Virus record (IMG/VR): IMGVR_UViG_3300005002_000001
Strand: one strand, 5' to 3'
DNA from: a virus
Length of the DNA stretch: 64,000 bases
Under the pieces are notes generated by a model. That model was not told where the DNA came from. It ran no database searches and was given only the letters and a program-made list of their open reading frames with translations. The translations under genes and the position numbers were made by a program. Below are positions 1-53,313 of this stretch, piece by piece; the first letter of the stretch is position 1; the number at the start of each line of letters is the position of its first letter.

Positions 1-4
1 TCAA

Positions 5-241
5 GTGATGAAGGTCGATTGCATCCAGCTGTGTCAGGGTCCGGACGTCATCGCTCAGCTTCAAGATCATAGAGGCGACGGTCGCACCTGGTGCATCCCG
101 CTGCCCAACGGCAACTTCGAACCGGTCGAAGACGAGAAGGAGATCGCTCAGCTGTATCACTGCCTGTCGGGCGACTTCACGGGCTACATGGTCTTCCGAG
201 CCGTCGAGTACGAGGACGTGCAAATCTGCGTGTGCTTCTGA
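5..241 (+). CDS. hypothetical protein (5' end may lie upstream of window)
   Basis: ORF from track; stop TGA overlaps next ATG (ATGA). Confidence 0.4.
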   Translation: MMKVDCIQLCQGPDVIAQLQDHRGDGRTWCIPLPNGNFEPVEDEKEIAQLYHCLSGDFTGYMVFRAVEYEDVQICVCF

Positions 242-405
242 TGATCAAGCTCCGGGACGCCCACCAGTGCTCCGAGGAGACTCTTAGGCGTCTCCTCTCC
301 TTCTGCCTGGAGAGGGATCCCTCGGGTCCGCGCATGCGGCAGGATCCGCCCAAGGACAAGCAGTCCATCATCGTCCAGCTCACCTGGCTCGGAGTCATCC
401 AATGA
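241..405 (+). CDS. hypothetical small protein (54 aa)
   Basis: In-frame ATG at 241 inside track ORF 91-405; ATGA coupling at both ends. Confidence 0.4.
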   Translation: MIKLRDAHQCSEETLRRLLSFCLERDPSGPRMRQDPPKDKQSIIVQLTWLGVIQ

Positions 406-638
406 AGAAGATCACGATCTGCCCCGACACCAGCGGGTCCGTCTCGGAGGAGCAGCTGCGGGAGTGCCTGAAGCAGCTGCGAGAGGCTCCACCGTCCCTT
501 CAGATCACCTGTACAGGCGGGTCCAAGGTATCCAACATCCGGGTCGGGAAGGGCACTCATGTCATCCTGGTGACGGACGGCTACCGAGCTCCCTGGTACC
601 GCCGGCTGTTCGCCTGGGTGAAAGCTCTTTTCAACTAG
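402..638 (+). CDS. hypothetical protein
   Basis: track ORF; ATGA overlap with upstream gene. Confidence 0.5.
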   Translation: MKKITICPDTSGSVSEEQLRECLKQLREAPPSLQITCTGGSKVSNIRVGKGTHVILVTDGYRAPWYRRLFAWVKALFN

Positions 639-645
639 GAATCGT

Positions 646-678
646 GTAATCCTCCGACGATCCTGATACGATGGTATC
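646..678 (+). promoter_or_regulatory. conserved phage promoter TGTAATC-N16-TACGAT, ATG ~6 nt downstream (leaderless)
   Basis: sequence gtgtaatcctccgacgatcctgatacgatggtatcATG; approximate coordinates. Confidence 0.55.
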
Positions 679-954
679 ATGGTGGAGGCAAACATGGTCG
701 GTACCAAGCTCACGATCGGCGCGGCTCGTTTCGACAGGGCTCCCTGGGAGTACAAGGAGTTCGGCTTCTTCGAGGTCACCGTCGACCGCGAGACGGACAA
801 GGCCGTCCGCGTGACCAGCGGCAAGCGCTGGTGCTGGCTCCCGAAGGCCGCCATCCGCAAGCCCGATCAGTGCCGGGCCTTCGTCTACGGGAAGCTGGTC
901 GAGGCCGGCATCCGGGAGAGCTACGCCGTCAATAACATCGGCGGGGTTTTGTAA
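679..954 (+). CDS. hypothetical protein
   Basis: track ORF immediately after promoter motif; internal GGAGG+ATG at 694 is an alternative start. Confidence 0.55.
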   Translation: MVEANMVGTKLTIGAARFDRAPWEYKEFGFFEVTVDRETDKAVRVTSGKRWCWLPKAAIRKPDQCRAFVYGKLVEAGIRESYAVNNIGGVL

Positions 955-983
955 TCGTCCGCGCTTCCTGGTAGAATGGTATC
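950..983 (+). promoter_or_regulatory. conserved promoter TGTAATC-N16-TAGAAT-N6-ATG
   Basis: ttttgtaatcgtccgcgcttcctggtagaatggtatcATG; nearly identical to the motif at 646. Confidence 0.55.
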
Positions 984-1577
984 ATGGTGGAGGCAACGAT
1001 GACCAAGAACGAGATCGTCCAGGGCGCGTACGCGATGGTCAACCAGCTGACGGACGAGCTGTCCCGTCTCCGCACGGCGGAGCGTAAGGCGCAGCACGAG
1101 GTCTGGAAGGCGAAGGGCGGGTGCGAGCGCTGCGGCGGTCGCGGCTGGATCGTCGTCTGGGACACGCTCGACTCCCTGAGCGGCTGCTACGCCGAGTATG
1201 GCTCGTGCCCTGAGGGTGACAAGTGCACCGCCTCGACGGTGGGCGCCGACCCGGGCTACTACGACCACAAGTACGATAACCTCCGCTGGCACAAGGACAC
1301 GTTCGTCCCGTCCGCCCAGATCGCCGCCGCCGAGCGCGAACTCAAGGACTGGCAGGAGACGCTGAAGGCGGCGCAGGACGACGCCAAGATCGCCAAGGGG
1401 AAGATCATCCGGGTCGTCCGCGGGCGCAAGGTGCCGCAGGGCACGACGGGCGAGTGCGTCTGGTTGGGCGCCGGGAAGTCCTACAGCTACTACGACCGCG
1501 GCGCCGACCGGGTCGGCATCAAGGACTCCAACGGGCAGGTCCACTGGACGGCGGCCTCCAACTGCGAGGTTGTGTGA
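984..1577 (+). CDS. zinc-ribbon protein with C-terminal SH3-like (GW/WT) domain
   Basis: CERCGG...C...C cysteine cluster; C-terminus VWLGAGKSYSYY...GQVHWTAAS resembles the paralogous GDL-WTV-GW family. Confidence 0.55.
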   Translation: MVEATMTKNEIVQGAYAMVNQLTDELSRLRTAERKAQHEVWKAKGGCERCGGRGWIVVWDTLDSLSGCYAEYGSCPEGDKCTASTVGADPGYYDHKYDNLRWHKDTFVPSAQIAAAERELKDWQETLKAAQDDAKIAKGKIIRVVRGRKVPQGTTGECVWLGAGKSYSYYDRGADRVGIKDSNGQVHWTAASNCEVV

Positions 1578-1584
1578 GCGTTTG

Positions 1585-1618
1585 TGTAATCTCGCCGACG
1601 AAGTGATAGGATAGATCC
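1585..1618 (+). promoter_or_regulatory. conserved promoter TGTAATC-N15-TAGGAT-N6-ATG
   Basis: tgtgtaatctcgccgacgaagtgataggatagatccATG. Confidence 0.55.
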
Positions 1619-1834
1619 ATGGCAACCAAGAAGGTCCACGTCCTCTCCGTCCAGTCCGAGTCCTGCGACCACTACGGTCCGTTCGTCTTCGCCGTCCGAC
1701 CCAACGTCGCTCAGCTGAAGACCTTCCTCAGGAAGAACACGTCCCCCGACGACGCCGACTTCTCGGCCGACGGTCCGGGCTGGCAGGGATCGTACCTGCA
1801 CCTGACCTGGTCGACCCGGACCGTGCACGAGTGA
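1619..1834 (+). CDS. hypothetical protein
   Basis: track ORF starting at predicted leaderless transcription start site. Confidence 0.55.
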   Translation: MATKKVHVLSVQSESCDHYGPFVFAVRPNVAQLKTFLRKNTSPDDADFSADGPGWQGSYLHLTWSTRTVHE

Positions 1835-1858
1835 GTGTAAAGAAGCGCTGAGCACTTC

Positions 1859-1892
1859 TGTAATCGCGAGCGAGTCCTGATAGGATTAAATC
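1859..1892 (+). promoter_or_regulatory. conserved promoter TGTAATC-N15-TAGGAT-N5-ATG
   Basis: tctgtaatcgcgagcgagtcctgataggattaaatcATG. Confidence 0.55.
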
Positions 1893-2066
1893 ATGGTCAA
1901 GCTGGTCCTCCCGCAGGAAGTCAAGATCGCCGTCCGACCCCTCAAGCTCGTCCCGTCCGAGGACGAGTACGATCGCATGTCCAAGATGGAGTGGCGCTTC
2001 GCCGTCCTGGACGCTCGGACCCAGGTGGGTCGGGCGCTCAACCAGTTCTTCTACGGAGGCAAGTGA
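1893..2066 (+). CDS. hypothetical small protein (57 aa)
   Basis: ATG 6 nt after -10 element; translated by hand MVKLVLPQEVKIAVRPLKLVPSEDEYDRMSKMEWRFAVLDARTQVGRALNQFFYGGK; stop overlaps next ATG. Confidence 0.5.
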   Translation: MVKLVLPQEVKIAVRPLKLVPSEDEYDRMSKMEWRFAVLDARTQVGRALNQFFYGGK

Positions 2067-2524
2067 TGGGCTACTGGATCGTCAAGGGCGGCGCCAAGGT
2101 CAACGGCAAGACCGTCTACCTCCAGGACCAGGGCATGCTCCGGACGGAGGACCAGCCGCGCGGCGGACCCGGGTTCTTCGGTCCCAAGAAGTCGGCCTTC
2201 CGCTTCGCCTCAGGCGAGCAGGCGACGCGAGCGACCCTGGGCATGCTCAACCTGGGACGCGGAGCTCTCCCGGTGGCCGTCGAGACGAAGAAGCCGCATC
2301 GCAGCTTCCTGGTCGATCAGGCCATCGCCGACCTGGAGCGGGACGTGGAGTACGAGTCCGACCTCCCCAAGGCGTACATGCAGCCCGACGACTGCTCCTA
2401 CCGCTGCAAGGCGGCTCTGCTCCGGTACGTCCGAGAGCTGGAAGCGGCCCTCAAGGCGGCGAGCAAGCCCAAGTCCCGGTACGAGACGGCCAACCGGCAC
2501 GAGTACGATTCCTCCAAGGCGTAG
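2066..2524 (+). CDS. hypothetical protein (N-terminal MGYWIVKGG motif)
   Basis: ATGA-coupled start inside track ORF 1991-2524. Confidence 0.5.
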   Translation: MGYWIVKGGAKVNGKTVYLQDQGMLRTEDQPRGGPGFFGPKKSAFRFASGEQATRATLGMLNLGRGALPVAVETKKPHRSFLVDQAIADLERDVEYESDLPKAYMQPDDCSYRCKAALLRYVRELEAALKAASKPKSRYETANRHEYDSSKA

Positions 2525-2558
2525 TGTAATCGTCCGCCCGGCGTGGTAAGATGGATTC
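2525..2558 (+). promoter_or_regulatory. conserved promoter TGTAATC-N16-TAAGAT-N6-ATG
   Basis: gtagtgtaatcgtccgcccggcgtggtaagatggattcATG. Confidence 0.55.
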
Positions 2559-3227
2559 ATGGTGGAGAGCAAGCAGATGCACAAGTCGGAGTTCGCGCGG
2601 ATCAGCAAGGCCGTCATCGCCCGCCTCATCGAGGCCGGACTGCCCCTGCGGCAGGACTCGCACGACGAGCTGGTCGCCCTGGTGGCCAGGCAAGACGATT
2701 ACTTCCACGACGTCCGCGCCGTGCTGAGCGTCGATCCCAAGGCGCGCTGGTCCGAGGACGCCCGGATCGACGTGACGGCCGACCGCAGCTGGGACAAGGA
2801 AGTGGACGAGGAGACGGGCGACGTCCTGGCCACGTCCAAGGTCAAGGTGACACTGCGCCTCAGCAGCTTCGAGGGCCCTCCCTCGGACGAGCTCTACGGT
2901 CGGCTGGACCTGACGCGCCAGGCCGTCGAGGCGTGCGAGAGCCTGCAGAAGGAGTTCGCCAAGGAGTACAAGTACGTCGTCCGCACGGCGGCGGAAGAGG
3001 CCGAGCGTCTGGCCAAGGAGGAGGCCGAGAACCGGCGCCTGAAGGTGCAGCGGATGGCCGAGTACCCGTCCAAGGGACTGCGCGCCGGCGGCAACGCCCG
3101 AACCGTCTCCCGCGAGCTCTTCACGGGCTGCCCGGACGGGACGTACGAGGTGAGCTACGATTCGGGCAAGCGCCAGTGCCGAGTGGTCCTCAGGCCGGGT
3201 AACGCCACCATCAGGAGGCTGGGATGA
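2559..3227 (+). CDS. hypothetical protein with C-terminal coiled coil
   Basis: track ORF; EEAERLAKEEAENRRLK heptad-like segment; alternative start at 2574 after GGAGAG. Confidence 0.55.
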   Translation: MVESKQMHKSEFARISKAVIARLIEAGLPLRQDSHDELVALVARQDDYFHDVRAVLSVDPKARWSEDARIDVTADRSWDKEVDEETGDVLATSKVKVTLRLSSFEGPPSDELYGRLDLTRQAVEACESLQKEFAKEYKYVVRTAAEEAERLAKEEAENRRLKVQRMAEYPSKGLRAGGNARTVSRELFTGCPDGTYEVSYDSGKRQCRVVLRPGNATIRRLG

Positions 3228-3472
3228 AGGTGCTGGAAGAGAAGCCCTGGACGCTGGAAGTGACGTGCGGAGAGTGCGGCTCCAAGCTCCAGGTGGAGAA
3301 GGACGACGTCCGAGCCGTGGAGTACGAGGTGTCGGACTGCGACCACACGGACTACAGCGCCATCTGCCCGGTGTGCAAGAGTCCGGTGGACCTGCCGACC
3401 AAGGACATCGCCGTCGGAGTCCGGGAGGAGGCCGTCAAGCGGTACCGCAAGAGCCGGAAGAGCCGGTGGTAG
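3224..3472 (+). CDS. zinc-ribbon protein
   Basis: CGECG...CPVC two CxxC pairs; ATGA overlap with upstream gene. Confidence 0.55.
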   Translation: MKVLEEKPWTLEVTCGECGSKLQVEKDDVRAVEYEVSDCDHTDYSAICPVCKSPVDLPTKDIAVGVREEAVKRYRKSRKSRW

Positions 3473-3893
3473 CCGCCGCCTGCAACGTTGCGGCAACTGG
3501 GGCCCCTGCAGAGCTGCAACGTCGTTGTAACAAGGGGCCCCTACGGGCCCCCTTCGGAGAGGCGAAAAAGGCCTAGGGGCCCGCCCCATTAAAGGGCCCC
3601 ATTAAAGTGGGGGGGCCGGGGGCAACCTTTGTGGGGCTTTTAACCACCTCCAGCGGGACCTAACCCCCTGCGGAAAATCTGGACCCTCCGCCGACTTTTC
3701 ACTCCACGCAGCGAGCGACCACGTTGATAAGCGTTTATTAGCAGCTCGAAAAAATGTAACCGAGGCCCACGTGCCCAAAAAATCTGGAAAAAAAGTGTCG
3801 GGCTTTTCAAGCCCTGCATCCTTGCATAGCAAGGACCTCGATCGACGAGGCCAATCGGCGCAGCATTCGCGTTTGAAACGCAATCCCACGCTC
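3473..3893. repeat. non-coding island dense in GC-rich palindromes and hairpins
   Basis: gcaacgttgc, ctgcagagctgca, ggggcccc (x2), gggccccc, short direct repeat ccattaaag (x2), hairpins gggcttttcaagccc and gcgtttgaaacgc; no convincing ORF. Confidence 0.5.
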
Positions 3894-4253
3894 ATGGAAG
3901 CGCTGGACGCCAGCATCGCGAAGGAGAAGGCGAAATTCCCGTTGGGCGTCATCGTCGCCCGGAATCACGCCGATCGAGCCGCGCTCAAGCTGGAAAAGAA
4001 TCCGGCCGAGCGGCCTCTGAGTTTTCCTCATGTTGATCAGTTGGACGAATGGCACCGAAACGTCCAAAAAGCTCGGGAAGCGACCTATTTTGTCGTCATC
4101 GATTCCCATTGGGACGCCGATTACTGCTATCTGTGGGTCGAGCTCATGGGACTGGGAGACCCCAGCGTCCGAGGCTGGTTGCGTAACCCGGAGACCAAAC
4201 TGATGCAGGTCGATCTGGAAAAGAAGAGAACGCGCCCGTGTAAAACACGCTGA
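3894..4253 (+). CDS. hypothetical protein (start uncertain)
   Basis: track ORF 3771-4253 trimmed to ATG 3894 because 3771-3890 is hairpin-rich. Confidence 0.35.
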   Translation: MEALDASIAKEKAKFPLGVIVARNHADRAALKLEKNPAERPLSFPHVDQLDEWHRNVQKAREATYFVVIDSHWDADYCYLWVELMGLGDPSVRGWLRNPETKLMQVDLEKKRTRPCKTR

Positions 4254-4278
4254 TCCCTTCAGGTTACTTTGCTTTCAA

Positions 4279-4773
4279 ATGCCGATCATCCTATCCACCC
4301 AACCCCAAGACATCGACATCGCCGAGGCCTACGCCTTGGACGTGTGCCAGTCCGATCCCCGCAAGAACCCCGAGACCTTTTACACCGGAGCTCTAGGCGA
4401 GCTCGCCTTCGCTCGTTGGGACGGGCCCGAGACTTACGACCGCTGCGTCGCGCACCTCCGTCGGGGCGCCGCTCCCGCCGCCGAGGACTGGCGTTACGAC
4501 TTCGTCTCCCGGCGTTCCTATCTGATCGACGTCAAGTCGGTGGGTTACGACAACGTCCGTCGGGGCTTCGGCGATATGCTCATCTCCAAGCCCGATCCCG
4601 ACGTCACCTACGTCCTCCTCTATTCCCTGGGCCCGAGCAATCGAGTCTTCGAATTCTCAGGTTGGGTCCTGGGCTCGCAGATCCACGATATGGCCCTCAA
4701 GCCACTGGCGCGCGACAATCACAAGTTCGTTCGGGTGCGCAAGCGCGATCTCAACCCGATCGACAAATGGTGA
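4279..4773 (+). CDS. hypothetical protein, possible PD-(D/E)xK-type nuclease
   Basis: GALGELAF ... DF ... YLIDVKS pattern resembles a restriction-endonuclease-like D...(D/E)xK core; weak. Confidence 0.3.
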   Translation: MPIILSTQPQDIDIAEAYALDVCQSDPRKNPETFYTGALGELAFARWDGPETYDRCVAHLRRGAAPAAEDWRYDFVSRRSYLIDVKSVGYDNVRRGFGDMLISKPDPDVTYVLLYSLGPSNRVFEFSGWVLGSQIHDMALKPLARDNHKFVRVRKRDLNPIDKW

Positions 4774-5138
4774 GCGCCCCGTCCTGGCGAGAGCTGCTGA
4801 GCGAGGTCTTGATGAATATCGTCCGTTGGATCGACATGAAGCTGGCTCCGGATCCCGGGCAGGTGCTGCGCCTGCGGCCGGGCCATTGGAACCCCGAGCC
4901 CTCCCTCGACATGACGCTGATCGCCCTGCATCGCGAATTTCCTAAGTGGAAGGCGCTCGATCACGCGTCCTACCGCATCTGGAAGAAGGCCGAGCTGCCT
5001 ACCCACTGGGTCGTCGTCGAGAAGCGCTGGCATCCCGAGGCCCAGCAGGTCTTTATCCGGCTGGTGTCGATGGGCGAGCGCGAGGTTCTGGGCTGGTGCC
5101 AGTACTTATACGAGCACTTCGACTGGGTCAAAGTTTAA
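4769..5138 (+). CDS. hypothetical protein
   Basis: ATGgTGA overlap start inside track ORF 4269-5138; the upstream part of that track ORF is Arg/Pro-rich GC artefact. Confidence 0.45.
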
Positions 5139-5163
5139 GGACGCCGACAAGAAATAGCTCTCG

Positions 5164-5197
5164 TGTATTCTCCGCGCCCTGGGTGTAAGATTGGGCT
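5164..5197 (+). promoter_or_regulatory. promoter variant TGTATTC-N15-TAAGAT-N6-ATG
   Basis: tcgtgtattctccgcgccctgggtgtaagattgggctATG. Confidence 0.45.
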
Positions 5198-5491
5198 ATG
5201 AGCCTGCAGTGCGTCGATCGTTCCTTCCCGCCTCGGGGAGCTTTGCTGGCCGGTGCGCGCGCCCAAGTTTTGGGCGACCTGGTCTCCTTCTATCGCACGC
5301 CGGAGTGGTCGAAGCGCGCTGATAACCACATCGGAGATTTTCGGACCGACGGCTTCTGGATCGTCCTGACGAAGCATCGGGATCGGACTCGTCTCATCTC
5401 TTTTCGTCCGGATCGGATCCGCCAGGTGTGCGGCTGGATCGAAAACATCGACCTGCGCTTCAAATTCGACCTCATTCGGAGCCGACCGTGA
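5198..5491 (+). CDS. hypothetical protein
   Basis: track ORF following promoter variant. Confidence 0.5.
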   Translation: MSLQCVDRSFPPRGALLAGARAQVLGDLVSFYRTPEWSKRADNHIGDFRTDGFWIVLTKHRDRTRLISFRPDRIRQVCGWIENIDLRFKFDLIRSRP

Positions 5492-5832
5492 GCATGCTGC
5501 AACGCCGACCGGGCGACGTCCTGCAAGGCGTCCTGCTGACGGGCAAGCTGGCTCCCTGGCCGCCTTACGTCCGGGCCAATCGAGTCCGCGTCTATCGGCG
5601 CATCGATCTCGAGCGTTCCCGAGGGATCGCCCGGGGCGAGCTCTTCCACCTCATCGGTTCTCGGGTCGAATACGACCTGTCGCGCCAGGGTTACTGGACG
5701 GTGCTCGAATACTTCCTGGGCGCCGCCCGCTATCGGGTGCTGCACGTCGATGAGATTCATAAGCTGCACGACGTCTTGATCAACGTCGGTGATATCGAGG
5801 ATACGAAACTCTTTCGCAAGGTGAACAGATGA
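5488..5832 (+). CDS. hypothetical protein with GYWTV motif
   Basis: GTGA overlap start (or ATG 5494); RQGYWTVLEY motif of the paralogous family. Confidence 0.45.
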   Translation: MSMLQRRPGDVLQGVLLTGKLAPWPPYVRANRVRVYRRIDLERSRGIARGELFHLIGSRVEYDLSRQGYWTVLEYFLGAARYRVLHVDEIHKLHDVLINVGDIEDTKLFRKVNR

Positions 5833-6119
5833 GCGACAAGCAGAGCAAGCAATCGGACCAACTGGACAGCTGGATGTCTATGCTGACGGACGACAAGGAG
5901 CGGGCCAGCGTCATCAAAGCCCAGATCGAGGCCAACGCCCAGACGGAGCGCGTGCGGGTCGAGCAGGTCGAGCAGTCCCGCCGGGCCGACATCGCCACCG
6001 ATGGCTTCCAGGGGTTTCGCATCGTCGCCGTCTTCGCCATCATGGCGGCCATCGCCGGTTCGACGTGCGTCGGCTATCACGCCATCGAGCTGAAGGCGGG
6101 CGCCTCCCAGCAGAAGTAG
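5829..6119 (+). CDS. small membrane-anchored protein with coiled coil
   Basis: ATGA overlap; C-terminal hydrophobic stretch FRIVAVFAIMAAIAGSTCVGY. Confidence 0.5.
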   Translation: MSDKQSKQSDQLDSWMSMLTDDKERASVIKAQIEANAQTERVRVEQVEQSRRADIATDGFQGFRIVAVFAIMAAIAGSTCVGYHAIELKAGASQQK

Positions 6120-6128
6120 GAGCTTTTC

Positions 6129-6542
6129 ATGGATCATCGGGAGCAGATCGCTCGACTCGTCGAGCTGCACGCCCAGGGCGTCATCTCTCGCCGGACCCTC
6201 ATCGAGGCGGCCGGTCTGGGCGACGTCATAAAGGACGACGAGGATAACAACGTGGCCGACGAGGTCGAGAATGTCGACGAGGACGACTTCCTGGATCGCA
6301 CCTATCCCCTGGGCGCGTTGATCCGGCCTAGAGTGCCGCTATCGGTCGGCATCAGCCTGTCGACCCGGCCCGGAGGCAAACCGCTGGCCGACGGCGAGCG
6401 CGCTCCCGTCGCCGTCCAAGTGAAGGCCTCGGGCTACTGGACCGTCGTCGCTCATCGCTCGGGGTGGACCAAGGTCGCCTCGGCCGACGGCCGCGGCGCG
6501 GGCTGGACCTTCTACGTCCGGGACTACTTTGAGCGCGTCTAA
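6129..6542 (+). CDS. GDL-WTV-GW family small protein (acidic linker + SH3-like C-terminus)
   Basis: SGYWTVVAHRSGWTKVASADGRGAGWTFYV; RBS aggag upstream. Confidence 0.6.
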   Translation: MDHREQIARLVELHAQGVISRRTLIEAAGLGDVIKDDEDNNVADEVENVDEDDFLDRTYPLGALIRPRVPLSVGISLSTRPGGKPLADGERAPVAVQVKASGYWTVVAHRSGWTKVASADGRGAGWTFYVRDYFERV

Positions 6543-6849
6543 GCGGAGCGATAAGCGGAGCGATTACATCGACTTTCGGCAGGGGGACCTGCTGGTCGGT
6601 CGACCCAACAAGCCCGAAGGCACTCTGCACCTGGAGAGACCTAATCGTTACACCCACACCCCGCAGCGACCCTGTCCCAACTATAGCTTTTCTCTGGACG
6701 AGTGCGTCGTCCTCATCCTGAGCGCCCAACGAGCCGGCAAGGACGCCTTCGCCGACTCCGAGGTCCTGGTCTCCGACTGTCGTCGGCAGAAGCTGATGCG
6801 TGGCTGGATGACCAATTACTACCTGATGAACGATTTTTGGATAGCATGA
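6529..6849 (+). CDS. hypothetical protein (FRQGDLLVGRP motif)
   Basis: track ORF, overlaps neighbours by a few nt. Confidence 0.4.
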   Translation: MSASKRSDKRSDYIDFRQGDLLVGRPNKPEGTLHLERPNRYTHTPQRPCPNYSFSLDECVVLILSAQRAGKDAFADSEVLVSDCRRQKLMRGWMTNYYLMNDFWIA

Positions 6850-7331
6850 GCAAGCGCAAGAAGCGCAACTGGACGGCGGCTCAGCAGGCCGTCTGGAAGG
6901 CGATCCTGGACGATATCAAACGCTGGACCATCCCGAACTGGATCTATGAGATGCAGTCCCTGGGCCTCTCCGTCCGGCGCGAGATGTACGGGGATTATGA
7001 CGAGGAGCATAGAGTCGTGAGCCTGAGCAAGTATCCCTTCGCACTGGGTACCCTGGTGAAGGTGCGACCGCGCAAGCCCTTTAAGGGCTCGATCGACGTC
7101 GTCCTGTCGGATAGGATGCGTTGGCCGCCCAAAGCCCGGGGCAAGAATGCCTACGCCTTCGGTGACAATAGGCGGGTGCCAGGCTGGGGTTACTGGACCG
7201 TCGTCGCTGTCGATCCCGTGCCGGGCGTAGGATTCTGGCACAAGATCGTCCGGGGAGACGGCGAGATGGGCTGGGTCGAGGACCTGCAGAAGGACTTCGT
7301 CGTCGTGAAACCCGAGGAAGAAACCAAGTAA
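6846..7331 (+). CDS. GDL-WTV-GW family protein
   Basis: ATGA start inside track ORF 6702-7331; GWGYWTVVAVDPVPGVGFWHKIVRGDGEMGWVED. Confidence 0.55.
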   Translation: MSKRKKRNWTAAQQAVWKAILDDIKRWTIPNWIYEMQSLGLSVRREMYGDYDEEHRVVSLSKYPFALGTLVKVRPRKPFKGSIDVVLSDRMRWPPKARGKNAYAFGDNRRVPGWGYWTVVAVDPVPGVGFWHKIVRGDGEMGWVEDLQKDFVVVKPEEETK

Positions 7332-7339
7332 TATTTCCG

Positions 7340-7519
7340 ATGGCGAAGCGTTCGAAGTTCGAAGAACAATGGACTCGGGAGCAGCTGCTGAGCGAGGTCC
7401 GAGAGCTCCGGGCGAGGAACGTCCGCCTCGAGCGGCGACTCGCCGAGCTGGAGGCCGCGCAAAAAGATAACTGCCTATCCGACGCTTCGCGTCGCGACAA
7501 CAGATTCGAACTCGCCTGA
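7340..7519 (+). CDS. small coiled-coil (leucine-zipper-like) protein, 59 aa
   Basis: hand translation MAKRSKFEEQWTREQLLSEVRELRARNVRLERRLAELEAAQKDN...; stop overlaps next ATG. Confidence 0.45.
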   Translation: MAKRSKFEEQWTREQLLSEVRELRARNVRLERRLAELEAAQKDNCLSDASRRDNRFELA

Positions 7520-7848
7520 TGTCTCACCGATTCCTCAATCTCATCAGCGATACTTCGCTTCTAAAAGAGGGCGACCTTCTCAAGCTGTACTCCCATCATT
7601 CTCGGAAGCTCAACGGTGAGGAAGAGGAACACGGCCCGTCCATCAAGCTACACCCCGCCGCTAACGAGTATAGCACGCGAGCTACTTACGTTCATGGCGC
7701 CCTCTTCTGGACCGTGCTGAGTACCTGGACTCGAGACTGGGTCTTCGTCGTCAATTCCGACGGCGACAAGGGCTGGGCGAATATTCATTCGAACACGCTG
7801 GAACTATGCGAGTCGCGCGATTCCACTCAATCTACGCCTACGATCTGA
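7519..7848 (+). CDS. GDL-WTV-GW family protein
   Basis: EGDLLKL ... LFWTVLSTWTRDWVFVVNSDGDKGWANI. Confidence 0.55.
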   Translation: MSHRFLNLISDTSLLKEGDLLKLYSHHSRKLNGEEEEHGPSIKLHPAANEYSTRATYVHGALFWTVLSTWTRDWVFVVNSDGDKGWANIHSNTLELCESRDSTQSTPTI

Positions 7849-8093
7849 AGCCAGGAGATTTGCTGCGACAAACGCTCGCCGCCTCCCTGCGCGGGGGCGG
7901 AATGCAGCTTCTAAATGAGAGGACGCCCGAGCCCACCTACAATTTCAAGTACTCGAACCACAATTCCCTCTGGTGGACCGTCCTGGCCGTCTATGACGAC
8001 GAATACATCGAGATCCTCTCCCATTACAATCATGAGCGTGGATTCGTCCATCGCCGCGATTGGGACAACTTCGAACTGGTAGTCGAGCAATGA
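7806..8093 (+). CDS. GDL-WTV-GW family protein
   Basis: PGDLLRQ ... LWWTVLAVYDDEYIEIL. Confidence 0.5.
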   Translation: MRVARFHSIYAYDLKPGDLLRQTLAASLRGGGMQLLNERTPEPTYNFKYSNHNSLWWTVLAVYDDEYIEILSHYNHERGFVHRRDWDNFELVVEQ

Positions 8094-10531: not shown

Positions 10532-10583
10532 CGAATGATCGTGCCTGTCATGCACTGCATCCTCGCTCGCCTGGGGAAGGCCG

Positions 10584-10617
10584 TGTATTCCCCCGCCGCT
10601 CCTGGTATGATAAGGCT
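10584..10617 (+). promoter_or_regulatory. promoter variant TGTATTC-N16-TATGAT-N6-ATG
   Basis: ccgtgtattcccccgccgctcctggtatgataaggctATG. Confidence 0.45.
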
Positions 10618-25433: not shown

Positions 25434-25679
25434 ATGGGATACCATACCCGAGAATTCGATAAGGGCGTCTACGGAGAAGTCAGCAAAATCCAGGAGGAGT
25501 ACGAAGAGTTCCTGGACGCTGTCAAGCAGAACGCCAAGGTTTTGGAACTGTGCGAGCTAGCCGATCTTTACGGCGCCATCGCTGGATACGTCGAGCAGAA
25601 TTTTCCAGGACTCAACATGGATGACATCAAACAGATGTCGGACATGACTCGCTCGGCCTTCGAGGAAGGCAAAAGATGA
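25434..25679 (+). CDS. small MazG-like nucleotide pyrophosphohydrolase domain protein (tentative)
   Basis: 81 aa all-helical; EEYEEF / ELADLYGAIAGYVEQ acidic motifs; GGAGATGG RBS. Confidence 0.35.
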   Translation: MGYHTREFDKGVYGEVSKIQEEYEEFLDAVKQNAKVLELCELADLYGAIAGYVEQNFPGLNMDDIKQMSDMTRSAFEEGKR

Positions 25680-26281
25680 ACCAAGAGATCAGGTGGGACC
25701 TCGTCGCTGCCGCTCGATCCTGGTACACTCGGTGGGGTTACACGTACGTCGAAACGCCTTGGTACGTGGCGGGAAGGGCGCTTAGAGCGACATTACCCGA
25801 AGGCAAACACGGATTTCAGCTTTGCCATCCCGAATTATTCAAAGGGTGGCTGGTGGGATCGGCCGAGCAGGGATTCCTGCAGATGATGCTCGACGGAGAT
25901 CTCAAACCGGGCAAATACTTTTCAGCTACTCCCTGCTTTCGCGATGATCCCGAGGACGAGCTGCACAACACTTACTTCTTCAAGGTCGAGCTCATCGAGA
26001 TCGAAGATCGCCTTCAGGTGCTGGACGACGGGAATGTCTATCGACTCATGAGCGCCTGCAAGAAGTTTTTCGAGGAATACTCTCACCAAGAGGTCAAAGT
26101 GAGACCCACTCCCGAAAATGGGCCATCGACTTACGATCTAGAACTCAACGACATCGAGATCGGATCTTACGGACTTCGAAAGCACGAGAATCACAGATGG
26201 GTATATGGGACAGGGTTAGCCCTTCCGAGATTCAATTTCGCAGCAGCGAGTCGAGGTACTCCCATCTGGGATCCGAAATAG
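25676..26281 (+). CDS. minimal class-II aminoacyl-tRNA-synthetase-like catalytic core (201 aa)
   Basis: motif 1-like WGYTYVETPW, motif 2-like TPCFRDDPEDELHNTYFFKVELIEI (fRdE), motif 3-like GSYGLRKHENHRWVYGTGLALPR; no anticodon-binding domain. Confidence 0.5.
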   Translation: MNQEIRWDLVAAARSWYTRWGYTYVETPWYVAGRALRATLPEGKHGFQLCHPELFKGWLVGSAEQGFLQMMLDGDLKPGKYFSATPCFRDDPEDELHNTYFFKVELIEIEDRLQVLDDGNVYRLMSACKKFFEEYSHQEVKVRPTPENGPSTYDLELNDIEIGSYGLRKHENHRWVYGTGLALPRFNFAAASRGTPIWDPK

Positions 26282-31166: not shown

Positions 31167-32102
31167 ATGTATCGTAGGATCGCGCTTGCTTTAGCGGCGC
31201 TCTCTCTCATCGGATGCGGCAGCCAAGACGTTCCTCCGGCCCACAAGGGTCGTAAATTCGACAAGACGGGAGCCGCGGCTCTCTGGGCCGGCGGAGCCGG
31301 CTTCGAGGGTCCGATCCTCGGGCCCGGCACGTACTACACGGGCATCTACCCCGAGATTCGCATGGTAGAATGCGGACAGCGCACCGTCAAAGAGTCGCTG
31401 ACGGCTCTCACCAAGGACGGCGTCCAGTTCTCTCTCGATGTCTACGTCTCGTACAGCGCGGCCTGCGACGAAGAAAAGACCGTCCAGACGCTGCTCGAAA
31501 AGCTTTCTCCCGAGGGCAAGCAGCCGGTGCCCGAAAAGGGCAAGGAAGACGCGTCGCAGCACGCTAGCGCCGCCGCCGATCCGACGCTGACGATCACAGC
31601 CGATCAGGTTTATCGGGTCTTCATCCGCCCGGCGATGGGCGAGGCCGTTCGCGAAAGCGTCTCTCCTTACATCGCCAACGATGTCAACGAGAAGCGCGAA
31701 GAGATCTTCGACAAGGTCAAGAAGTCCTTCGAGGAGAACCTCAAGAAGCAGCAGCAGAAACTCGTCACCATCTACACGATGAACCTCTCCAACCTCGACT
31801 TCCCGGATGCGATGGACGCGGCCAACGCGGCCCGCGCTGTCCAAGCCATCGAAAAGGACAAGGCGATCGCCGCCCGAGCGAAGGTCGAAGCCGAGATCGA
31901 GACGGCCAAGCTCGAAGTGACGAAGCGCGAGGTCGAGGCGCAGGCCGAGGCCAAAAAGATCGACGTCATCGGCGCGGCCCTTCACCGCAATCCCGAGTAC
32001 TACATCCGCGATGTATACTTCTACGCCGCCGACAAGGGTGGGTCGGTCATGGTCCCGTCGAATCCCAACGTCATCCTCCAGATGACGCCCAAGAAGCCCT
32101 AA
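31167..32102 (+). CDS. SPFH/band-7 domain lipoprotein
   Basis: lipobox signal MYRRIALALAALSLIGCGS; SPFH-like core followed by Ala/Glu-rich coiled coil AARAKVEAEIETAKLEVTKREVEAQAEAKK. Confidence 0.5.
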   Translation: MYRRIALALAALSLIGCGSQDVPPAHKGRKFDKTGAAALWAGGAGFEGPILGPGTYYTGIYPEIRMVECGQRTVKESLTALTKDGVQFSLDVYVSYSAACDEEKTVQTLLEKLSPEGKQPVPEKGKEDASQHASAAADPTLTITADQVYRVFIRPAMGEAVRESVSPYIANDVNEKREEIFDKVKKSFEENLKKQQQKLVTIYTMNLSNLDFPDAMDAANAARAVQAIEKDKAIAARAKVEAEIETAKLEVTKREVEAQAEAKKIDVIGAALHRNPEYYIRDVYFYAADKGGSVMVPSNPNVILQMTPKKP

Positions 32103-33629: not shown

Positions 33630-33793
33630 CTAAGGTAGGAGCCCGACAAGTGATCGATGCTCTGGCGCTCAGAGTCTTCGAAATCGAAGAGATCGAAACA
33701 CGGCTTTCGATCGAAAAGCAGCAGCTAAGGGAGCGGATCCACGAGCTCGAGTGGTTCGAAGACAGTGACGTGGTGGAGTTCAATGGCGAATGA
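33626..33793 (+). CDS. small coiled-coil protein (55 aa)
   Basis: hand translation MTKVGARQVIDALALRVFEIEEIETRLSIEKQQLRERIHELEW...; ATGA at both ends. Confidence 0.4.
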   Translation: MTKVGARQVIDALALRVFEIEEIETRLSIEKQQLRERIHELEWFEDSDVVEFNGE

Positions 33794-34728
33794 AAAATCG
33801 AAACGACAAGATCCTCCTGCGAATCGCCCAGGGCGACGCCTACGCCATGGCCGTCGAGTACTGCAAGCGTACCGAGCATCCGGAACTCTTCGACGAGGTC
33901 CTCAAGTTCGAGCGCTTTCACAAGCATCCGACGCATCACAAGCTCAATCCGGGCATGTATACTGACGACACTCAGATGTCTGTTGCCGTGACGGAAGCCC
34001 TGCTGGCCGACGCGTCGGGCCTCTACTGGGACAACTACCTGACGACTGATATGTTCGCCTGGCACTTCTTCGAAGCCTTCAAGCGGGATCCCCGGGACGG
34101 CTACTCTAGAAAGTTTCAGGAGATCCTCGAGCGGTCGCGAACAGTCAACGAGCTCAAGCTCAATCTAGTGCCCGATTCGAATAAGAACGGGGCCTGCATG
34201 CGGGCCGTTCCGATCGGCGTGCTTCTCACCCCCGAGGAAGTGATCAAAGTTTGCGAGACGCAAGCCAAAGTCACTCATGATACGTTCGGAGGGATCCGGT
34301 CGGCGCAAGTCGTCGGACTCATGTCTCACTTTGCACTCTACGAATCGGCTCCTTTTTCGGATCTGCCGGGCTATGTTGCCCGTTACTTGCCGGATCTGAA
34401 TTTTCTGAGCGAACCCTGGAGGGGTGGAGTGGGTCTGCAGCATAGCGACCCGCACGGTCGCGGGATCGGTATCAACACGGCTCACGCCGTCATGACTTTG
34501 CTCATCGAGCAACCATCGTTGATGGATATCCTGCGGCAAACCATCGAATGGCGCGGCGATACCGATTCGGTGGCCGCCGTCGCTTGGGGCATCGCCTCGA
34601 CTCGGTATCCCAACGAAATCATACCCGATTTTCTCGAGCATGCGCTCGAAGCGACAGGCAATCTGAAGTACGGCCCGGACTTCCTGTTGAAATTGGGCAA
34701 GCGGTTGATGAACGAATACGACGTGTGA
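33790..34728 (+). CDS. ADP-ribosylglycohydrolase (ARH/DraG family)
   Basis: RIAQGDAYAMAVEY, MYTDDTQMSVAVTEALL, C-terminal WRGDTDSVAAVAWGIAS - both metal-binding signature regions. Confidence 0.75.
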   Translation: MKNRNDKILLRIAQGDAYAMAVEYCKRTEHPELFDEVLKFERFHKHPTHHKLNPGMYTDDTQMSVAVTEALLADASGLYWDNYLTTDMFAWHFFEAFKRDPRDGYSRKFQEILERSRTVNELKLNLVPDSNKNGACMRAVPIGVLLTPEEVIKVCETQAKVTHDTFGGIRSAQVVGLMSHFALYESAPFSDLPGYVARYLPDLNFLSEPWRGGVGLQHSDPHGRGIGINTAHAVMTLLIEQPSLMDILRQTIEWRGDTDSVAAVAWGIASTRYPNEIIPDFLEHALEATGNLKYGPDFLLKLGKRLMNEYDV

Positions 34729-34735
34729 GGGAACT

Positions 34736-35503
34736 ATGGACCTCTCTGACAGAATGAAGCAGTACGAGGGAACCTACCGAGGTTACCTGAAGATCGAAAA
34801 CGAGCATGACGTAGTCGTCATTCGTGTCGACGGTCGGGCATTTCACACCTACACTCGAGGGGCTAAAGAGCCGTTCGACGAGATGCTGCAATCTTCGATG
34901 AACGAGGTAGCTCGCGAACTGTGCGAGAACATTCAGGGAGCGCAGCTGGCCTATGTCCAATCGGACGAGGTGTCCGTCATCGTCTCTGCGGGCAACGGAG
35001 CCAACATCTGGTTCGATGGAAACATCCAAAAGATGTGCTCCATCTCGGCAGCGATCGCTTCGACCCGCATGACTTTGGAGTCTCCAAGAGTCTTCGGCAA
35101 GATGAGAGTCGCTCAGTTCGATTCTCGAGTCTTCGTCCTGCCCAAGGAAGAAGTCATCAACTACCTCATCTGGAGGCAATCGGACGCCACTCGAAACTCT
35201 GTTCAAATGCTAGCTCGATCCCTCTTTTCCCACAAGCAGTTGCTGGGAAAGTCGTGCGACGTCATGAAGCAGATGGTGAGAGAAGCCGGGAGACCTTGGG
35301 AGAACGAAGCCATCGGCTCGACCCGGGGTCGCTGCATCATCAAGCAATCCTTTCAAGAGAACGTCGAATACGTCGACAAGCGTACCAAGCAAATCAAAAA
35401 CGCCGTCGCCGAACGAACTCGCTGGATCCCCATCTGGGATATCCCGTGCTTCGTGCAAGACAGGACTTTCGTCGCGCAGCAGCTCAAAAAGGAACAGCAA
35501 TGA
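34736..35503 (+). CDS. thg1: Thg1-like tRNA 3'-5' nucleotidyltransferase (tRNA-His guanylyltransferase family)
   Basis: VVIRVDGRAFHTYTRGAKEPFDEML...AYVQSDEVSVIV aligns with the Thg1 core RLDGRNFHRF...AYGQSDEYSFVF. Confidence 0.75.
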   Translation: MDLSDRMKQYEGTYRGYLKIENEHDVVVIRVDGRAFHTYTRGAKEPFDEMLQSSMNEVARELCENIQGAQLAYVQSDEVSVIVSAGNGANIWFDGNIQKMCSISAAIASTRMTLESPRVFGKMRVAQFDSRVFVLPKEEVINYLIWRQSDATRNSVQMLARSLFSHKQLLGKSCDVMKQMVREAGRPWENEAIGSTRGRCIIKQSFQENVEYVDKRTKQIKNAVAERTRWIPIWDIPCFVQDRTFVAQQLKKEQQ

Positions 35504-50386: not shown

Positions 50387-50400
50387 TTAGTCGAAGCCCG

Positions 50401-53310: not shown

Positions 53311-53313
53311 CTG

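What the first reader, a model, noticed from the sequence alone, without database searches (positions are those of the whole stretch)
3473..3893. About 420-bp non-coding island packed with GC-rich palindromes between two plus-strand gene blocks
In a genome where genes overlap by ATGA, this stretch has no credible ORF. It contains gcaacgttgc, ctgcagagctgca, ggggcccc (twice), gggccccc, gggcccgcccc, a G7 run, the direct repeat ccattaaag (x2) and at least two clean hairpins (gggcttttcaagccc, gcgtttgaaacgc). It also marks the boundary where the TGTAATC promoters stop for ~1.3 kb. Candidates are a replication origin, a pac/cos or terminal-repeat boundary, a cluster of terminators, or a structured ncRNA.
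Basis: seen in the sequence. Interest (0 to 1): 0.6.

Follow-up and report, generated by a model that had tools for sequence, protein, structure and literature searches.

The report
Ultra-conserved non-coding island in large phages
A roughly 300-base gene-free stretch packed with G/C palindromes and short repeats is conserved far better than the genes around it in a group of uncultured large phages, so it is a real functional signal (most likely a DNA control site such as a replication origin), but its function cannot be settled from sequence alone.

Summary
The boundaries need correcting. The non-coding island is 3473-3770. Bases 3771-3893 are probably the N-terminus of a variable protein (start GTG 3771), and the two "clean hairpins" lie there in a lineage-specific 60-nt in-frame insert.

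In about 15 related metagenomic contigs, the core (about 3495-3692) is 83-100% identical while flanking genes are 50-77% identical. One-base indels rule out coding. There is no Rfam match, folding energy is no better than shuffles, and the longest helix never varies.

An invariant 17-mer (GGCAACCTTTGTGGGGC, 3621-3637) recurs in three much more distant large-phage contigs. There it has the same layout: GCCCCA repeats, the 17-mer, then an A/T-rich box about 31 nt later. In those contigs it lies between a canonical terminator and a promoter, or next to a probable opposite-strand gene, and beside lineage-specific repeat arrays.

I favour a cis-acting DNA site, most likely an iteron-type replication origin (about 0.3). 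The rivals are:
- an RNA-level terminator or leader
- a stand-alone ncRNA
- a packaging or injection-stop site
- a regulator-binding array

Function remains untested.

The parts
3224..3472 (+). Upstream gene: an 82-aa zinc-ribbon protein, the last gene of the promoter-per-gene block. It is not part of the element but is its usual left neighbour.
   Evidence: ORF. It has weak Zn-ribbon, DUF7560 and phrog_2834 hits. It is deleted in L083 and replaced in L135 while the island is kept. L147 carries a weak homologue to the left of its island.
3480..3493 (+). Hairpin hp1 (CTGCA-acgt-TGCGG). Its sequence varies among relatives, and it is absent in L139.
   Evidence: Every variant can form a 4-5 bp hairpin, but in shifted registers. 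L139 lacks it.
3499..3552 (.). G/C palindrome block: GGGGCCCC (3499), hairpin hp2 TGCAAC-gtc-GTTGTA (3515-3529), GGGGCCCC (3534) and GGGCCCCC (3545). This includes the 7-bp hairpin 3534-3551.
   Evidence: It is conserved in close relatives. Distant relatives carry one GGGGCC..GGCCCC palindrome at the equivalent position.
3553..3582 (.). Block TTCGGAGAGGCGAAAAAGGCCTAGGGGCCC. It is invariant in all close relatives except L139, where it is replaced.
3583..3608 (+). Two tandem 13-bp repeats: GCCCCATTAAAGG and GCCCCATTAAAGT.
   Evidence: Family D7. They are invariant in 9 sequences. GCCCCA(Y) repeats recur in L147, L163 and L151.
3609..3622 (+). G-run segment (G7 CC G5). This is the only part of the core that tolerates 1-nt indels and substitutions.
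   Evidence: Searches show G7 or G8, CCG or CCT, GGGGCTGGGG in L010, and G6C4G4 in L137.
3621..3637 (+). Box 1: the invariant 17-mer GGCAACCTTTGTGGGGC. It holds an inverted, imperfect copy of the 13-bp repeat (GCCCCACAAAGG on the minus strand). T4 follows at 3638-3641.
   Evidence: It occurs once in the window even with 3 mismatches allowed. It is identical in all close relatives and in L147/L141, L143=L163 and L151. Together with 3583-3600 it forms a 17-pair helix that never varies.
3650..3668 (+). Conserved CCAGCGGGACCTAACCCCC. The preceding 10 nt (3642-3651) come in two alternative versions among relatives.
3670..3692 (+). Box 2 / DR-A: GCGGAAAATCTGGACCCTCCGCC, an A-tract/T-tract box 32 nt after Box 1.
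   Evidence: Family D16. A similar box lies 31-32 nt after Box 1 in L147, L163 and L151.
3720..3795 (.). AT-rich segment, tied for lowest-GC 40-nt window and lowest at 60 nt in the first 16 kb. It contains a weak promoter-like site (TGTAACC 3755, N16, AAAAAT), the GAGG Shine-Dalgarno motif (3762-3765), the GTG start (3771) and the second copy of the A-rich box, DR-B (3774-3797).
   Evidence: GC is 0.35-0.40 against a mean of 0.595. The promoter-like score is 10.6, against at least 14 for established sites. The segment is conserved in L009 and L083 and replaced in the other lineage.
3771..4253 (+). First downstream gene (160 aa), a member of a fast-diverging family with the C-terminal motif W..C.LWIE..RGW.
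   Evidence: No Pfam or PHROG hit. The AlphaFold model (pLDDT 76) has no significant structural match.
3795..3854 (+). Lineage-specific 60-nt in-frame insert carrying three perfect hairpins (3800-3814, 3819-3835, 3836-3850). A fourth hairpin lies at 3869-3881.
   Evidence: It is absent in L009 and present in L083. The hairpins are listed. Folding of 3795-3890 gives z = -2.5.

Best explanation
The island (3473-3770, core about 3495-3692) is a single-copy, cis-acting DNA element conserved across a clade of uncultured large or jumbo phages. I think it is most likely an origin of replication of the repeat-plus-AT-rich type.

Proposed mechanism (inferred, not shown):
1. A sequence-specific protein binds the GCCCCA(Y)AAAG repeats. 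These are two direct copies plus the inverted copy inside the invariant 17-mer.
2. The flanking G/C palindromes and the A/T boxes give structure and an easily melted region (3720-3795).
3. Transcription from the dense early promoters upstream may run into the site and help activate it.

In the window's own lineage the element also marks the end of the promoter-per-gene early block. There it may double as a transcription barrier.

What is shown: non-coding status, uniqueness, nucleotide-level purifying selection, repeat architecture, and recurrence in distant relatives.

What is inferred: DNA-level action, protein binding, and origin function.
For: - **Uniqueness.** One such island occurs per locus, both in the 64-kb window and in every related locus.
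- **Conservation above coding level.** The core is 83-100% identical to L010 and L009, where flanking genes are 50-77% identical. The 17-mer is identical in phages whose neighbouring Zn-ribbon protein is only 26% identical, and which share almost no other detectable protein nearby.
- **Not coding.** Relatives show 1-nt indels, and three different reading frames run through Box 1.
- **Repeat architecture.** There are two tandem 13-mers plus an inverted copy. Distant relatives carry their own repeat arrays between Box 2 and DR-B. L163 has ACAGACACACTGACTTTAT twice in tandem plus 2-3 degenerate copies. L151 has GCTGCTTC four times. L147 has two short tandem pairs.
- **AT-rich flank.** An AT-rich segment, among the lowest-GC stretches in the first 16 kb, sits next to the G/C block.
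- **Context in distant relatives argues against mRNA.** In L163 the element lies after a canonical hairpin-plus-U terminator and before the next leaderless promoter. In L151 a probable opposite-strand GIY-YIG gene lies to its left.
- **No RNA signal.** There is no Rfam family. MFE is no better than shuffles, with z of -0.2 to +0.85 for the core. The 17-pair helix is invariant rather than covarying.
- **The distant hits are in related phages.** L147 and L163 share the TG(C/T)AAT leaderless promoter type, which is absent from all nine control loci that also hit the 17-mer. L151 shares a protein that is 52% identical with L137.
Against: - No replication gene is recognisable next to the island. 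The flanking proteins have no family or fold match.
- The island contains no DnaA box.
- Cumulative GC skew shows only a broad maximum over 3-7 kb, not a sharp switch.
- In the window's lineage there are only two or three repeats, and the AT-rich part overlaps the ribosome-binding site and start of the next gene.
- About six distinct chance hits for a 17-mer are expected in the viral collection by my rough estimate. Residual similarity to the distant islands is weak by generic local alignment (z of 3 or less). Their homology therefore rests on layout and phage relatedness.
- Three compensatory changes and some G-U-compatible substitutions in the minor helices are compatible with an RNA role.
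- No experimental data of any kind are available.
Confidence: 0.3

Rival explanations
1. RNA-level transcription boundary. The plus-strand RNA folds into G/C hairpins. The main one is the long helix 3583-3600 / 3618-3637 followed by U4. These hairpins terminate or attenuate the transcripts coming from the many upstream early promoters. The promoter-less genes 3771-5138 would then be expressed only by regulated read-through, that is antitermination or delayed-early timing.
For: - The island starts 8 nt after the stop codon of the last gene of a block with five TGTAATC promoters in 2.5 kb. No such promoter occurs again until 5164.
- A 17-pair helix followed by UUUU is present in all nine close relatives.
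- A<->G changes opposite U, and U-G to U-A changes in hp1, hp2 and the GGGGCCCC helix, keep pairing on the plus strand.
- The whole structure has three compensatory cells, reached by 1 of 500 shuffles.
Against: - The U-tract is not kept in distant relatives: UGUUCG in L163 and CAUCUG in L151.
- L163 has its own canonical terminator upstream of the element and a promoter downstream of it.
- Folding energy is not better than dinucleotide shuffles, and the ensemble is diffuse.
- Both arms of the main helix are invariant. A plain terminator would be expected to drift with compensation.
- The tested structure was derived from the same sequences, which biases.
Confidence: 0.23
2. Regulator-binding or module-boundary DNA. 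The repeats are operator- or enhancer-like sites for a phage transcription factor that controls the downstream block. Alternatively, they form a conserved 'linker' that serves as a homology arm for swapping the variable genes to its right.
For: - Two copies of an A-rich box flank the segment just upstream of the next gene: DR-A at 3670-3692 and DR-B at 3774-3797.
- Gene content to the right of the island differs among otherwise near-identical relatives, with at least four variants of the first gene.
- The left neighbour is deleted or replaced in L083 and L135.
- In L163 the repeat array lies 150-250 nt upstream of a promoter.
Against: - Operators normally overlap the promoter they control. No convincing promoter lies in the window's island; the best site scores 10.6, against at least 14 for established sites.
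- A passive homology arm would not need a 17-mer that stays invariant across very distant phages.
Confidence: 0.15
3. Virion-DNA landmark. The island is a packaging signal (pac/cos), the inner boundary of a long terminal repeat, or a T5-like injection-stop signal that halts DNA entry after the early 'take-over' genes.
For: - The layout resembles the T5 iss. [quoted passage not shown] It is conserved much better than the neighbouring ORFs, and a homing endonuclease is inserted in it in some phages (Davison, bioRxiv 10.1101/866236, read).
- Here the island follows at least 10 kb of small genes, each with its own promoter.
- A probable GIY-YIG gene abuts it in L151.
- Four contigs of close relatives end or become chimeric inside the island: L007, L008, L013 and L012.
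Against: - The island has no DnaA boxes, and no A1/A2-like proteins were found upstream.
- In the 269.5-kb contig the island lies mid-contig, at about 139.6 kb.
- Contigs of relatives extend 22-38 kb upstream with no common end.
- The contig breaks are equally explained by strain micro-diversity at a boundary between conserved and variable sequence.
- No terminase similarity was seen in the flanking genes examined.
Confidence: 0.13
4. Stand-alone structured non-coding RNA, for example a 3'-UTR-derived small RNA or a G-rich RNA, whose sequence rather than just its fold is recognised by a protein or a target.
For: - The core shows extreme nucleotide conservation with variation confined to a putative apical loop, the G-run.
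- GCCCCA...UGGGGC pairing potential is kept in all distant relatives, even though the 5' partner moves.
- Four or more G-runs give G-quadruplex potential in most variants.
Against: - No dedicated promoter lies in front of the element in any lineage.
- No Rfam match, no thermodynamic signal and no covariation in the main helix.
- In L163 the element lies between a terminator and a promoter.
Confidence: 0.12

Closest known systems
Iteron-type replication origins of phages and plasmids (lambda ori, P1 oriR, T4 oriE). Comparison from general knowledge.
   Same: - It is a single-copy non-coding or gene-boundary site.
- It has short direct repeats in tandem plus an inverted copy, an adjacent AT-rich stretch, and G/C-rich palindromes.
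- The repeat arrays differ between related replicons while the overall layout is kept.
- It sits at a promoter-rich early region.
   Different: - There is no recognisable initiator gene beside or around it.
- There are no DnaA boxes.
- The window's lineage has only 2-3 repeats.
- A 17-mer invariant across very divergent phages is unusual for initiator sites, which normally co-vary with their protein.
- Origin activity is untested.
Injection stop signal (iss) region of T5-like phages (Davison, bioRxiv 10.1101/866236)
   Same: [quoted passage not shown]
- It lies just after a block of small early genes.
- It is conserved far better than the neighbouring ORFs.
- Homing-endonuclease genes are inserted next to it in some members.
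   Different: - The T5 region is 1.2-1.7 kb, lies inside a 10-kb terminal repeat, and carries eight paired DnaA boxes. A1/A2 genes lie upstream.
- None of these features is found here.
- Terminal position cannot be assessed. The element is mid-contig in one 269-kb assembly.
Intrinsic (Rho-independent) terminators and attenuators at early/delayed-early boundaries (lambda tR1/tL1 type). Comparison from general knowledge.
   Same: - G/C-rich hairpins sit directly after the last gene of a multi-promoter early block.
- One long helix is followed by UUUU.
- The downstream genes lack their own promoter of the known class.
   Different: - The U-tract is not conserved in distant relatives.
- The stem sequence is frozen rather than compensating.
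- A separate canonical terminator precedes the element in L163.
PeSL-type promoter/stem-loop cassettes that flank shuffled small genes in T4-like phages (recalled from memory, not checked here)
   Same: It is conserved non-coding sequence at the border of a hyper-variable gene region, and relatives differ by gene replacements on both sides of it.
   Different: Those cassettes are repeated many times per genome, and each carries a promoter. This island is single-copy and has no convincing promoter.

Membership tests
Any described RNA family (Rfam 15) | Match to a curated covariance model | tested here: not met
   No hit at E <= 1 in window 2500-5000. No hit in the islands of L137, L147, L151 and L163 or in L153 and L155. 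No tRNA or tmRNA in the window.
Structured RNA in general | Folding energy better than composition-matched shuffles | tested here: not met
   For 3473-3700, z is -0.2 on the plus strand and -1.3 on the minus strand. For the core 3576-3648, z is +0.85 in the window and between -0.5 and +0.1 in L010 and L139.
Structured RNA in general | Compensatory base-pair changes across relatives | tested here: inconclusive
   Only 3 of 52 pairs show a double change. The 17-pair main helix never varies. The structure was derived from the same nine sequences.
Intrinsic terminator | G/C-rich hairpin immediately followed by a U-tract, at the end of a transcription unit | tested here: inconclusive
   In the window clade the criterion is met: helix 3583-3637 plus U4, located 110 nt after a stop codon. 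The tail is lost in L163 and L151. The standard scan found no plus-strand terminator in the island.
Iteron-type replication origin | Cluster of direct repeats of about 12-22 bp | tested here: met
   Two tandem 13-mers plus one inverted copy. L163 has a 19-bp unit twice in tandem plus degenerate copies.
Iteron-type replication origin | Adjacent AT-rich, easily melted region | tested here: met
   3720-3795 has GC of 0.35-0.40. It ties for the lowest 40-nt window and is the lowest 60-nt window in the first 16 kb. It is shorter and less AT-rich in the second lineage.
Iteron-type replication origin | Host DnaA boxes (TTWTNCACA) | tested here: not met
   There are only two matches in 64 kb, both far from the island.
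Iteron-type replication origin | Initiator or other replication gene overlapping or adjacent | tested here: not met
   The flanking proteins have no Pfam or PHROG replication hit. The model of the downstream protein has no significant fold match.
Iteron-type replication origin | Replication initiates there | not testable with these tools
   This needs marker-frequency or 2D-gel data. GC skew gives only a broad cumulative maximum at 3-7 kb.
T5-type injection stop signal | Repeat- and palindrome-rich untranslated region, conserved above the level of neighbouring ORFs, after the pre-early genes | tested here: met
   for this island. The T5 description is taken from 10.1101/866236.
T5-type injection stop signal | Paired DnaA boxes, with A1/A2 genes upstream | tested here: not met
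   No DnaA boxes. Ten upstream proteins give only an HNH endonuclease hit.
T5-type injection stop signal | Location inside a long terminal repeat, with two-step DNA entry | not testable with these tools
   No reads or virion DNA are available. In the 269.5-kb contig the element is mid-contig.
pac/cos packaging site | Defined termini or a cleavage series at the site, usually next to terminase genes | not testable with these tools
   No reads are available. The neighbouring genes examined show no terminase similarity. Contig ends inside the island are ambiguous.
G-quadruplex motif | Four G-runs of at least 3 with short loops, conserved across relatives | tested here: inconclusive
   The window (G7, G5, G4) and L010 (four G4 runs) qualify. 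L137 (G6, G4, G4) barely does. One loop is 10 nt, and complementary C-runs lie nearby.

The most novel reading that the evidence does not exclude
The island is a previously undescribed, clade-wide cis-element of uncultured jumbo-size phages with one of two unusual mechanisms.

(a) It acts as a T5-like stop signal for stepwise genome entry, in phages unrelated to T5.

(b) Its G-run and invariant 17-mer form a transcription-dependent R-loop or G-quadruplex that both ends early transcription and primes replication. This would resemble ColE1 or mitochondrial CSBII logic in a phage.
Probability: 0.12. Interest if true: 0.75.

Novelty: new member of a known kind. Interest (0 to 1): 0.45.

Why it matters
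Origins, packaging signals and timing switches are almost unknown for uncultured large phages. A 17-base sequence frozen across phages that share hardly any recognisable proteins nearby marks a site under very strong constraint. It gives an entry point for finding how these genomes start replication or switch from early to later expression. It is also a handy sequence tag for recognising members of this clade in metagenomes. If the function turned out to be stepwise DNA entry or R-loop priming, it would extend mechanisms known from single model systems to a new phage group.

Tried and rejected
- **Cultured-phage searches.** Searches with 3000-4400 (near), 1-8000 (distant) and 3576-3700 (distant, E <= 10) found nothing. 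A Thg1-like protein finds only hits of about 40% identity or less, so there is no cultured relative.
- **Other collection scans.** The 222-aa upstream protein finds no viral-contig relatives. The 25-mer of the tandem repeat is absent from the viral collection. The metagenome scan with the tandem-repeat pattern returned mostly chance hits. Only L083 was new; L051 duplicates L009 and L002 was already held.
- **Relaxed patterns.** They added no new viral relatives.
- **Genome-collection hits.** L153 (Myxococcales MAG) and L155 (Anaerolineae MAG) look like bacterial chromosome. They lack the phage promoter type and may be chance.
- **Protein-coding explanation.** Rejected, because of 1-nt indels, a stop codon in the window in the frame shared by L151 and L163, and three different frames across Box 1.
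- **Sigma-54 and DnaA-box readings of Box 1.**
- **The palindrome ctgcagagctgca.** It is not conserved in L009 and L137 and is probably incidental.
- **Terminator scans.** Counts across 1-50 kb are at chance level, so they give no reference terminator shape for this phage.
- **Source contig.** Attempts to locate the island within the 162-kb contig listed failed.
- **Downstream protein.** Structure prediction and fold search gave no functional lead.
- **Strand bias of G-U versus A-C mismatches.** My reading of the pair table shows no strand preference when counted by column.

Full report
**1. What is in the sequence**

The stretch follows the stop codon (3470-3472) of an 82-aa zinc-ribbon gene (3224-3472).

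The stretch is the statistical extreme of the window.
- It has 12 runs of four or more G or C in 200 nt. Elsewhere the maximum is 4 and the mean is 0.5.
- It has 7 perfect inverted repeats with arms of at least 7 bp in 3473-3670. Dinucleotide-preserving shuffles of the same segment give 1.7 (p about 0.007). This is the highest count of any 198-nt tile in 64 kb.
- GGGGCCCC occurs only here, twice.

The promoter observation also holds. TGTAATC is enriched, with 18 matches against 4.5 expected. Thirteen plus-strand copies form a clear class, TGTAATC-N15-TAnnAT-N6-7-ATG, which implies leaderless mRNAs. Sites lie at 645, 950, 1585, 1859 and 2525. The next one is a TGTATTC variant at 5164.

**2. Correcting the boundaries**

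The right-hand 123 nt are probably coding. The ORF 3771-4253 is the gene call on an identical JGI contig. Several observations support its GTG start.
- The start is ATG in L083.
- A GAGG motif 5 nt upstream recurs in L009 and L139.
- The window differs from L009 by an exact 60-nt (20-codon) indel at 3795-3854.

The product belongs to a fast-diverging family. This family is the first gene after the island in all close relatives, with a C-terminal W..C.LWIE..RGW motif. It has no family or fold match.

The hairpin gggcttttcaagccc lies in the 60-nt insert, and gcgtttgaaacgc lies just after it. They are real (z = -2.5 for 3795-3890) but lineage-specific. The non-coding island is therefore 3473-3770.

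**3. Relatives and conservation**

No cultured phage matches. Exact-protein look-ups and pattern scans recovered about 15 related metagenomic contigs.
- Near-identical relatives: L001-L008, L011, L013, L135.
- More distant relatives: L009/L083 and L010, whose zinc-ribbon proteins are 67-70% identical to the window's, plus L137 and L139.

Against L010 and L009, the core 3489-3668 is 83-100% identical, while the flanking genes are 50-77% identical. The island persists when the left gene is deleted (L083) or replaced (L135). It also persists when the right-hand genes are exchanged, with at least four variants.

Single-base indels occur in the G-run, in GGGGCC-G and in ATTAAA-GG. Three different reading frames cross the 17-mer in different relatives. 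Together these exclude a protein-coding explanation.

**4. Anatomy of the conserved core (window coordinates)**

- hp1, 3480-3493: variable in sequence and dispensable.
- G/C palindromes with hp2, 3499-3552.
- A conserved block, 3553-3582.
- Two tandem 13-mers, GCCCCATTAAAGG/T, 3583-3608.
- A variable G-run, 3609-3622.
- The invariant 17-mer GGCAACCTTTGTGGGGC, 3621-3637. On the other strand it contains an imperfect copy of the 13-mer. T4 follows.
- CCAGCGGGACCTAACCCCC, 3650-3668.
- An A-rich box, DR-A, 3670-3692.
- An AT-rich stretch, 3720-3795, among the lowest-GC stretches in the first 16 kb. It holds the second A-rich box, DR-B (3774-3797), at the start of the next gene.

**5. Distant relatives**

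Scanning the viral collection for the 17-mer gave 13 loci in six sequence families. By my rough estimate, about that many chance hits are expected. However, three families (L141/L147, L143 = L163, L151) have the 17-mer in non-coding DNA with the same layout. Each has a GGGGCC..GGCCCC palindrome, several GCCCCA(Y) repeats, the 17-mer, and 31-32 nt later an A-tract/T-tract box resembling DR-A.

These three are also related phages.
- L147 and L163 use the same unusual leaderless promoter type, TGCAA(G/T)-N16-TAnnnT-N6-ATG. It is absent from all nine control loci that hit the 17-mer.
- L151 shares a protein that is 52% identical with L137 in syntenic position.
- L147 has a weak zinc-ribbon homologue to the left of the island.

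Generic local alignment outside the 17-mer is only weakly significant (z of 3 or less). I therefore treat the homology as probable, not proven. Two hits in bacterial MAGs (L153, L155) lack these features and may be chance.

**6. What the distant relatives say about function**

In L163, from a 269.5-kb contig where the island is mid-contig, the order is as follows:
1. Gene stop.
2. A canonical terminator: an 8-bp G/C stem plus a U-rich tail.
3. GCCCCA repeats and the 17-mer.
4. The A/T box.
5. An array of ACAGACACACTGACTTTAT repeats.
6. A second A/T box.
7. A leaderless promoter.
8. The next gene.

The element there lies outside both flanking transcription units. In L151 a probable GIY-YIG gene on the opposite strand lies to its left, and GCTGCTTC repeats lie between the two A/T boxes. 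L147 has short tandem repeats in the same interval.

A role as the terminator of an upstream operon, or as the leader of the downstream mRNA, therefore cannot be the shared function.

**7. RNA evidence**

- There is no Rfam hit.
- Folding energies are no better than shuffles on either strand.
- RNAalifold proposes a 17-pair helix (3583-3600 with 3618-3637) followed by U4. All 17 pairs are invariant, which says nothing for or against pairing.
- Minor helices show three compensatory cells and some G-U-compatible changes. This is weak evidence, and the structure was derived from the same sequences.
- The U-tail is lost in distant relatives.

**8. Interpretation**

The data show a single-copy, non-coding element under sequence-level purifying selection stronger than on the neighbouring proteins. 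It has a repeat, palindrome and AT-rich architecture, and it sits next to lineage-specific repeat arrays.

I judge DNA-level action more likely than RNA-level action, at roughly 0.6 to 0.4. Among DNA-level roles, a replication origin fits best (confidence about 0.3). Missing features are a neighbouring initiator gene, DnaA boxes and a sharp skew switch.

In the window's own lineage the element may additionally stop early transcription. That would explain why the next 1.4 kb has no promoter of the known class.

The T5 injection-stop region is the closest described look-alike in layout and conservation pattern (10.1101/866236). Its defining DnaA-box pairs and A1/A2 genes are absent here. Terminal position cannot be tested.

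**9. Verdict**

This is a real, clade-wide, previously undescribed cis-element of unknown function. Its extent, and two of its hairpins, belong to a coding region. Interest is moderate. Read-level and transcript-level data that already exist for the source samples could decide between the hypotheses.

Noticed in passing
window 645-41871 (for example 645, 950, 1585, 1859, 2525, 5164, 9459, 10584, 12847, 18864, 22560, 23228): A phage-wide promoter class, TGTAATC-N15-TAnnAT, sits 6-7 nt before ATG, which implies leaderless mRNAs. Related phages use TGCAATC (L137), TGCAAG (L147) or TGCAAT (L163). The unusual -35 motif suggests a phage-specific or host-clade-specific sigma factor.
   Followed up: partly
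window 3795-3854; L004 about 10551-10610 and the equivalent stretch of L011: Two unrelated 60-nt in-frame inserts, each made of three short perfect hairpins, lie in the N-terminal region of the first gene after the island. They look like hairpin cassettes. It is unclear whether they are translated or act in the 5' end of the mRNA.
   Followed up: partly
L012 about 3006-3433: This MEGAHIT contig continues 53 nt into the island. It then switches, at hairpin hp2, to the reverse complement of another strain's zinc-ribbon allele (81 aa) and the gene before it. This is a fold-back junction at a palindrome. It could be a library artefact or a real snap-back molecule.
   Followed up: partly
window 15937-18585 (+) and 31167-32102 (+): An 882-aa protein has major-vault-protein shoulder and repeat domains plus an SPFH/Band 7 domain (MVP_shoulder E = 8e-30). 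A second SPFH protein is also present. This is unusual cargo for a phage.
   Followed up: no
window 25676-26281, 33790-34728, 34736-35503, 42774-44027 (+): A tRNA/RNA-repair-like set is present: a histidyl-tRNA-synthetase-like protein, an ADP-ribosylglycohydrolase, a Thg1-type tRNA-His guanylyltransferase and a T4-type RNA ligase. No tRNA gene lies in the window. Relatives carry a tRNA upstream (L137 3457-3529, L163 2906-2978).
   Followed up: no
L009 2649-3074 and 3071-3454; window 3771-4253: The variable post-island gene family can be duplicated in tandem. The second gene in L009 (P0016) is 67% identical to the window's protein, while the first is only about 34% identical. This suggests rapid diversification or cassette exchange.
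   Followed up: partly
L151 (reverse strand) about 1000-1240; L136 2059-2412: Homing-endonuclease-type genes lie near the element. A probable GIY-YIG gene directly abuts the island in L151. An HNH gene sits in the early block about 7 kb upstream in the window's lineage.
   Followed up: partly
L155 5260-5420 (Anaerolineae MAG) and L153 1640-1780 (Myxococcales MAG): Bacterial-looking contigs contain the exact 17-mer. In L155 it lies within a near-perfect hairpin, CCCCAAAGG-GCAA-CCTTTGTGGGG, flanked by an inverted repeat AAAAACCCGTTTTC/GAAAACGGGTTTTT. This could be chance or a host-side counterpart of the phage element.
   Followed up: partly
window 47402-56193 (-): Three consecutive ORFs of very similar length (994, 969 and 959 aa) follow one another on the minus strand. 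A 1159-aa ORF with a laminin-G/concanavalin-like domain lies nearby (57981-61460). They may be paralogous fibre or receptor-binding proteins.
   Followed up: no
window -6.8 kb (via L002) to 7 kb: The early block upstream of the island is compositionally distinct. Its GC is 0.60-0.67, with A>T and purine excess on the coding strand. Downstream the GC is 0.55-0.60 with no AT skew. The shift coincides roughly with the island.
   Followed up: partly
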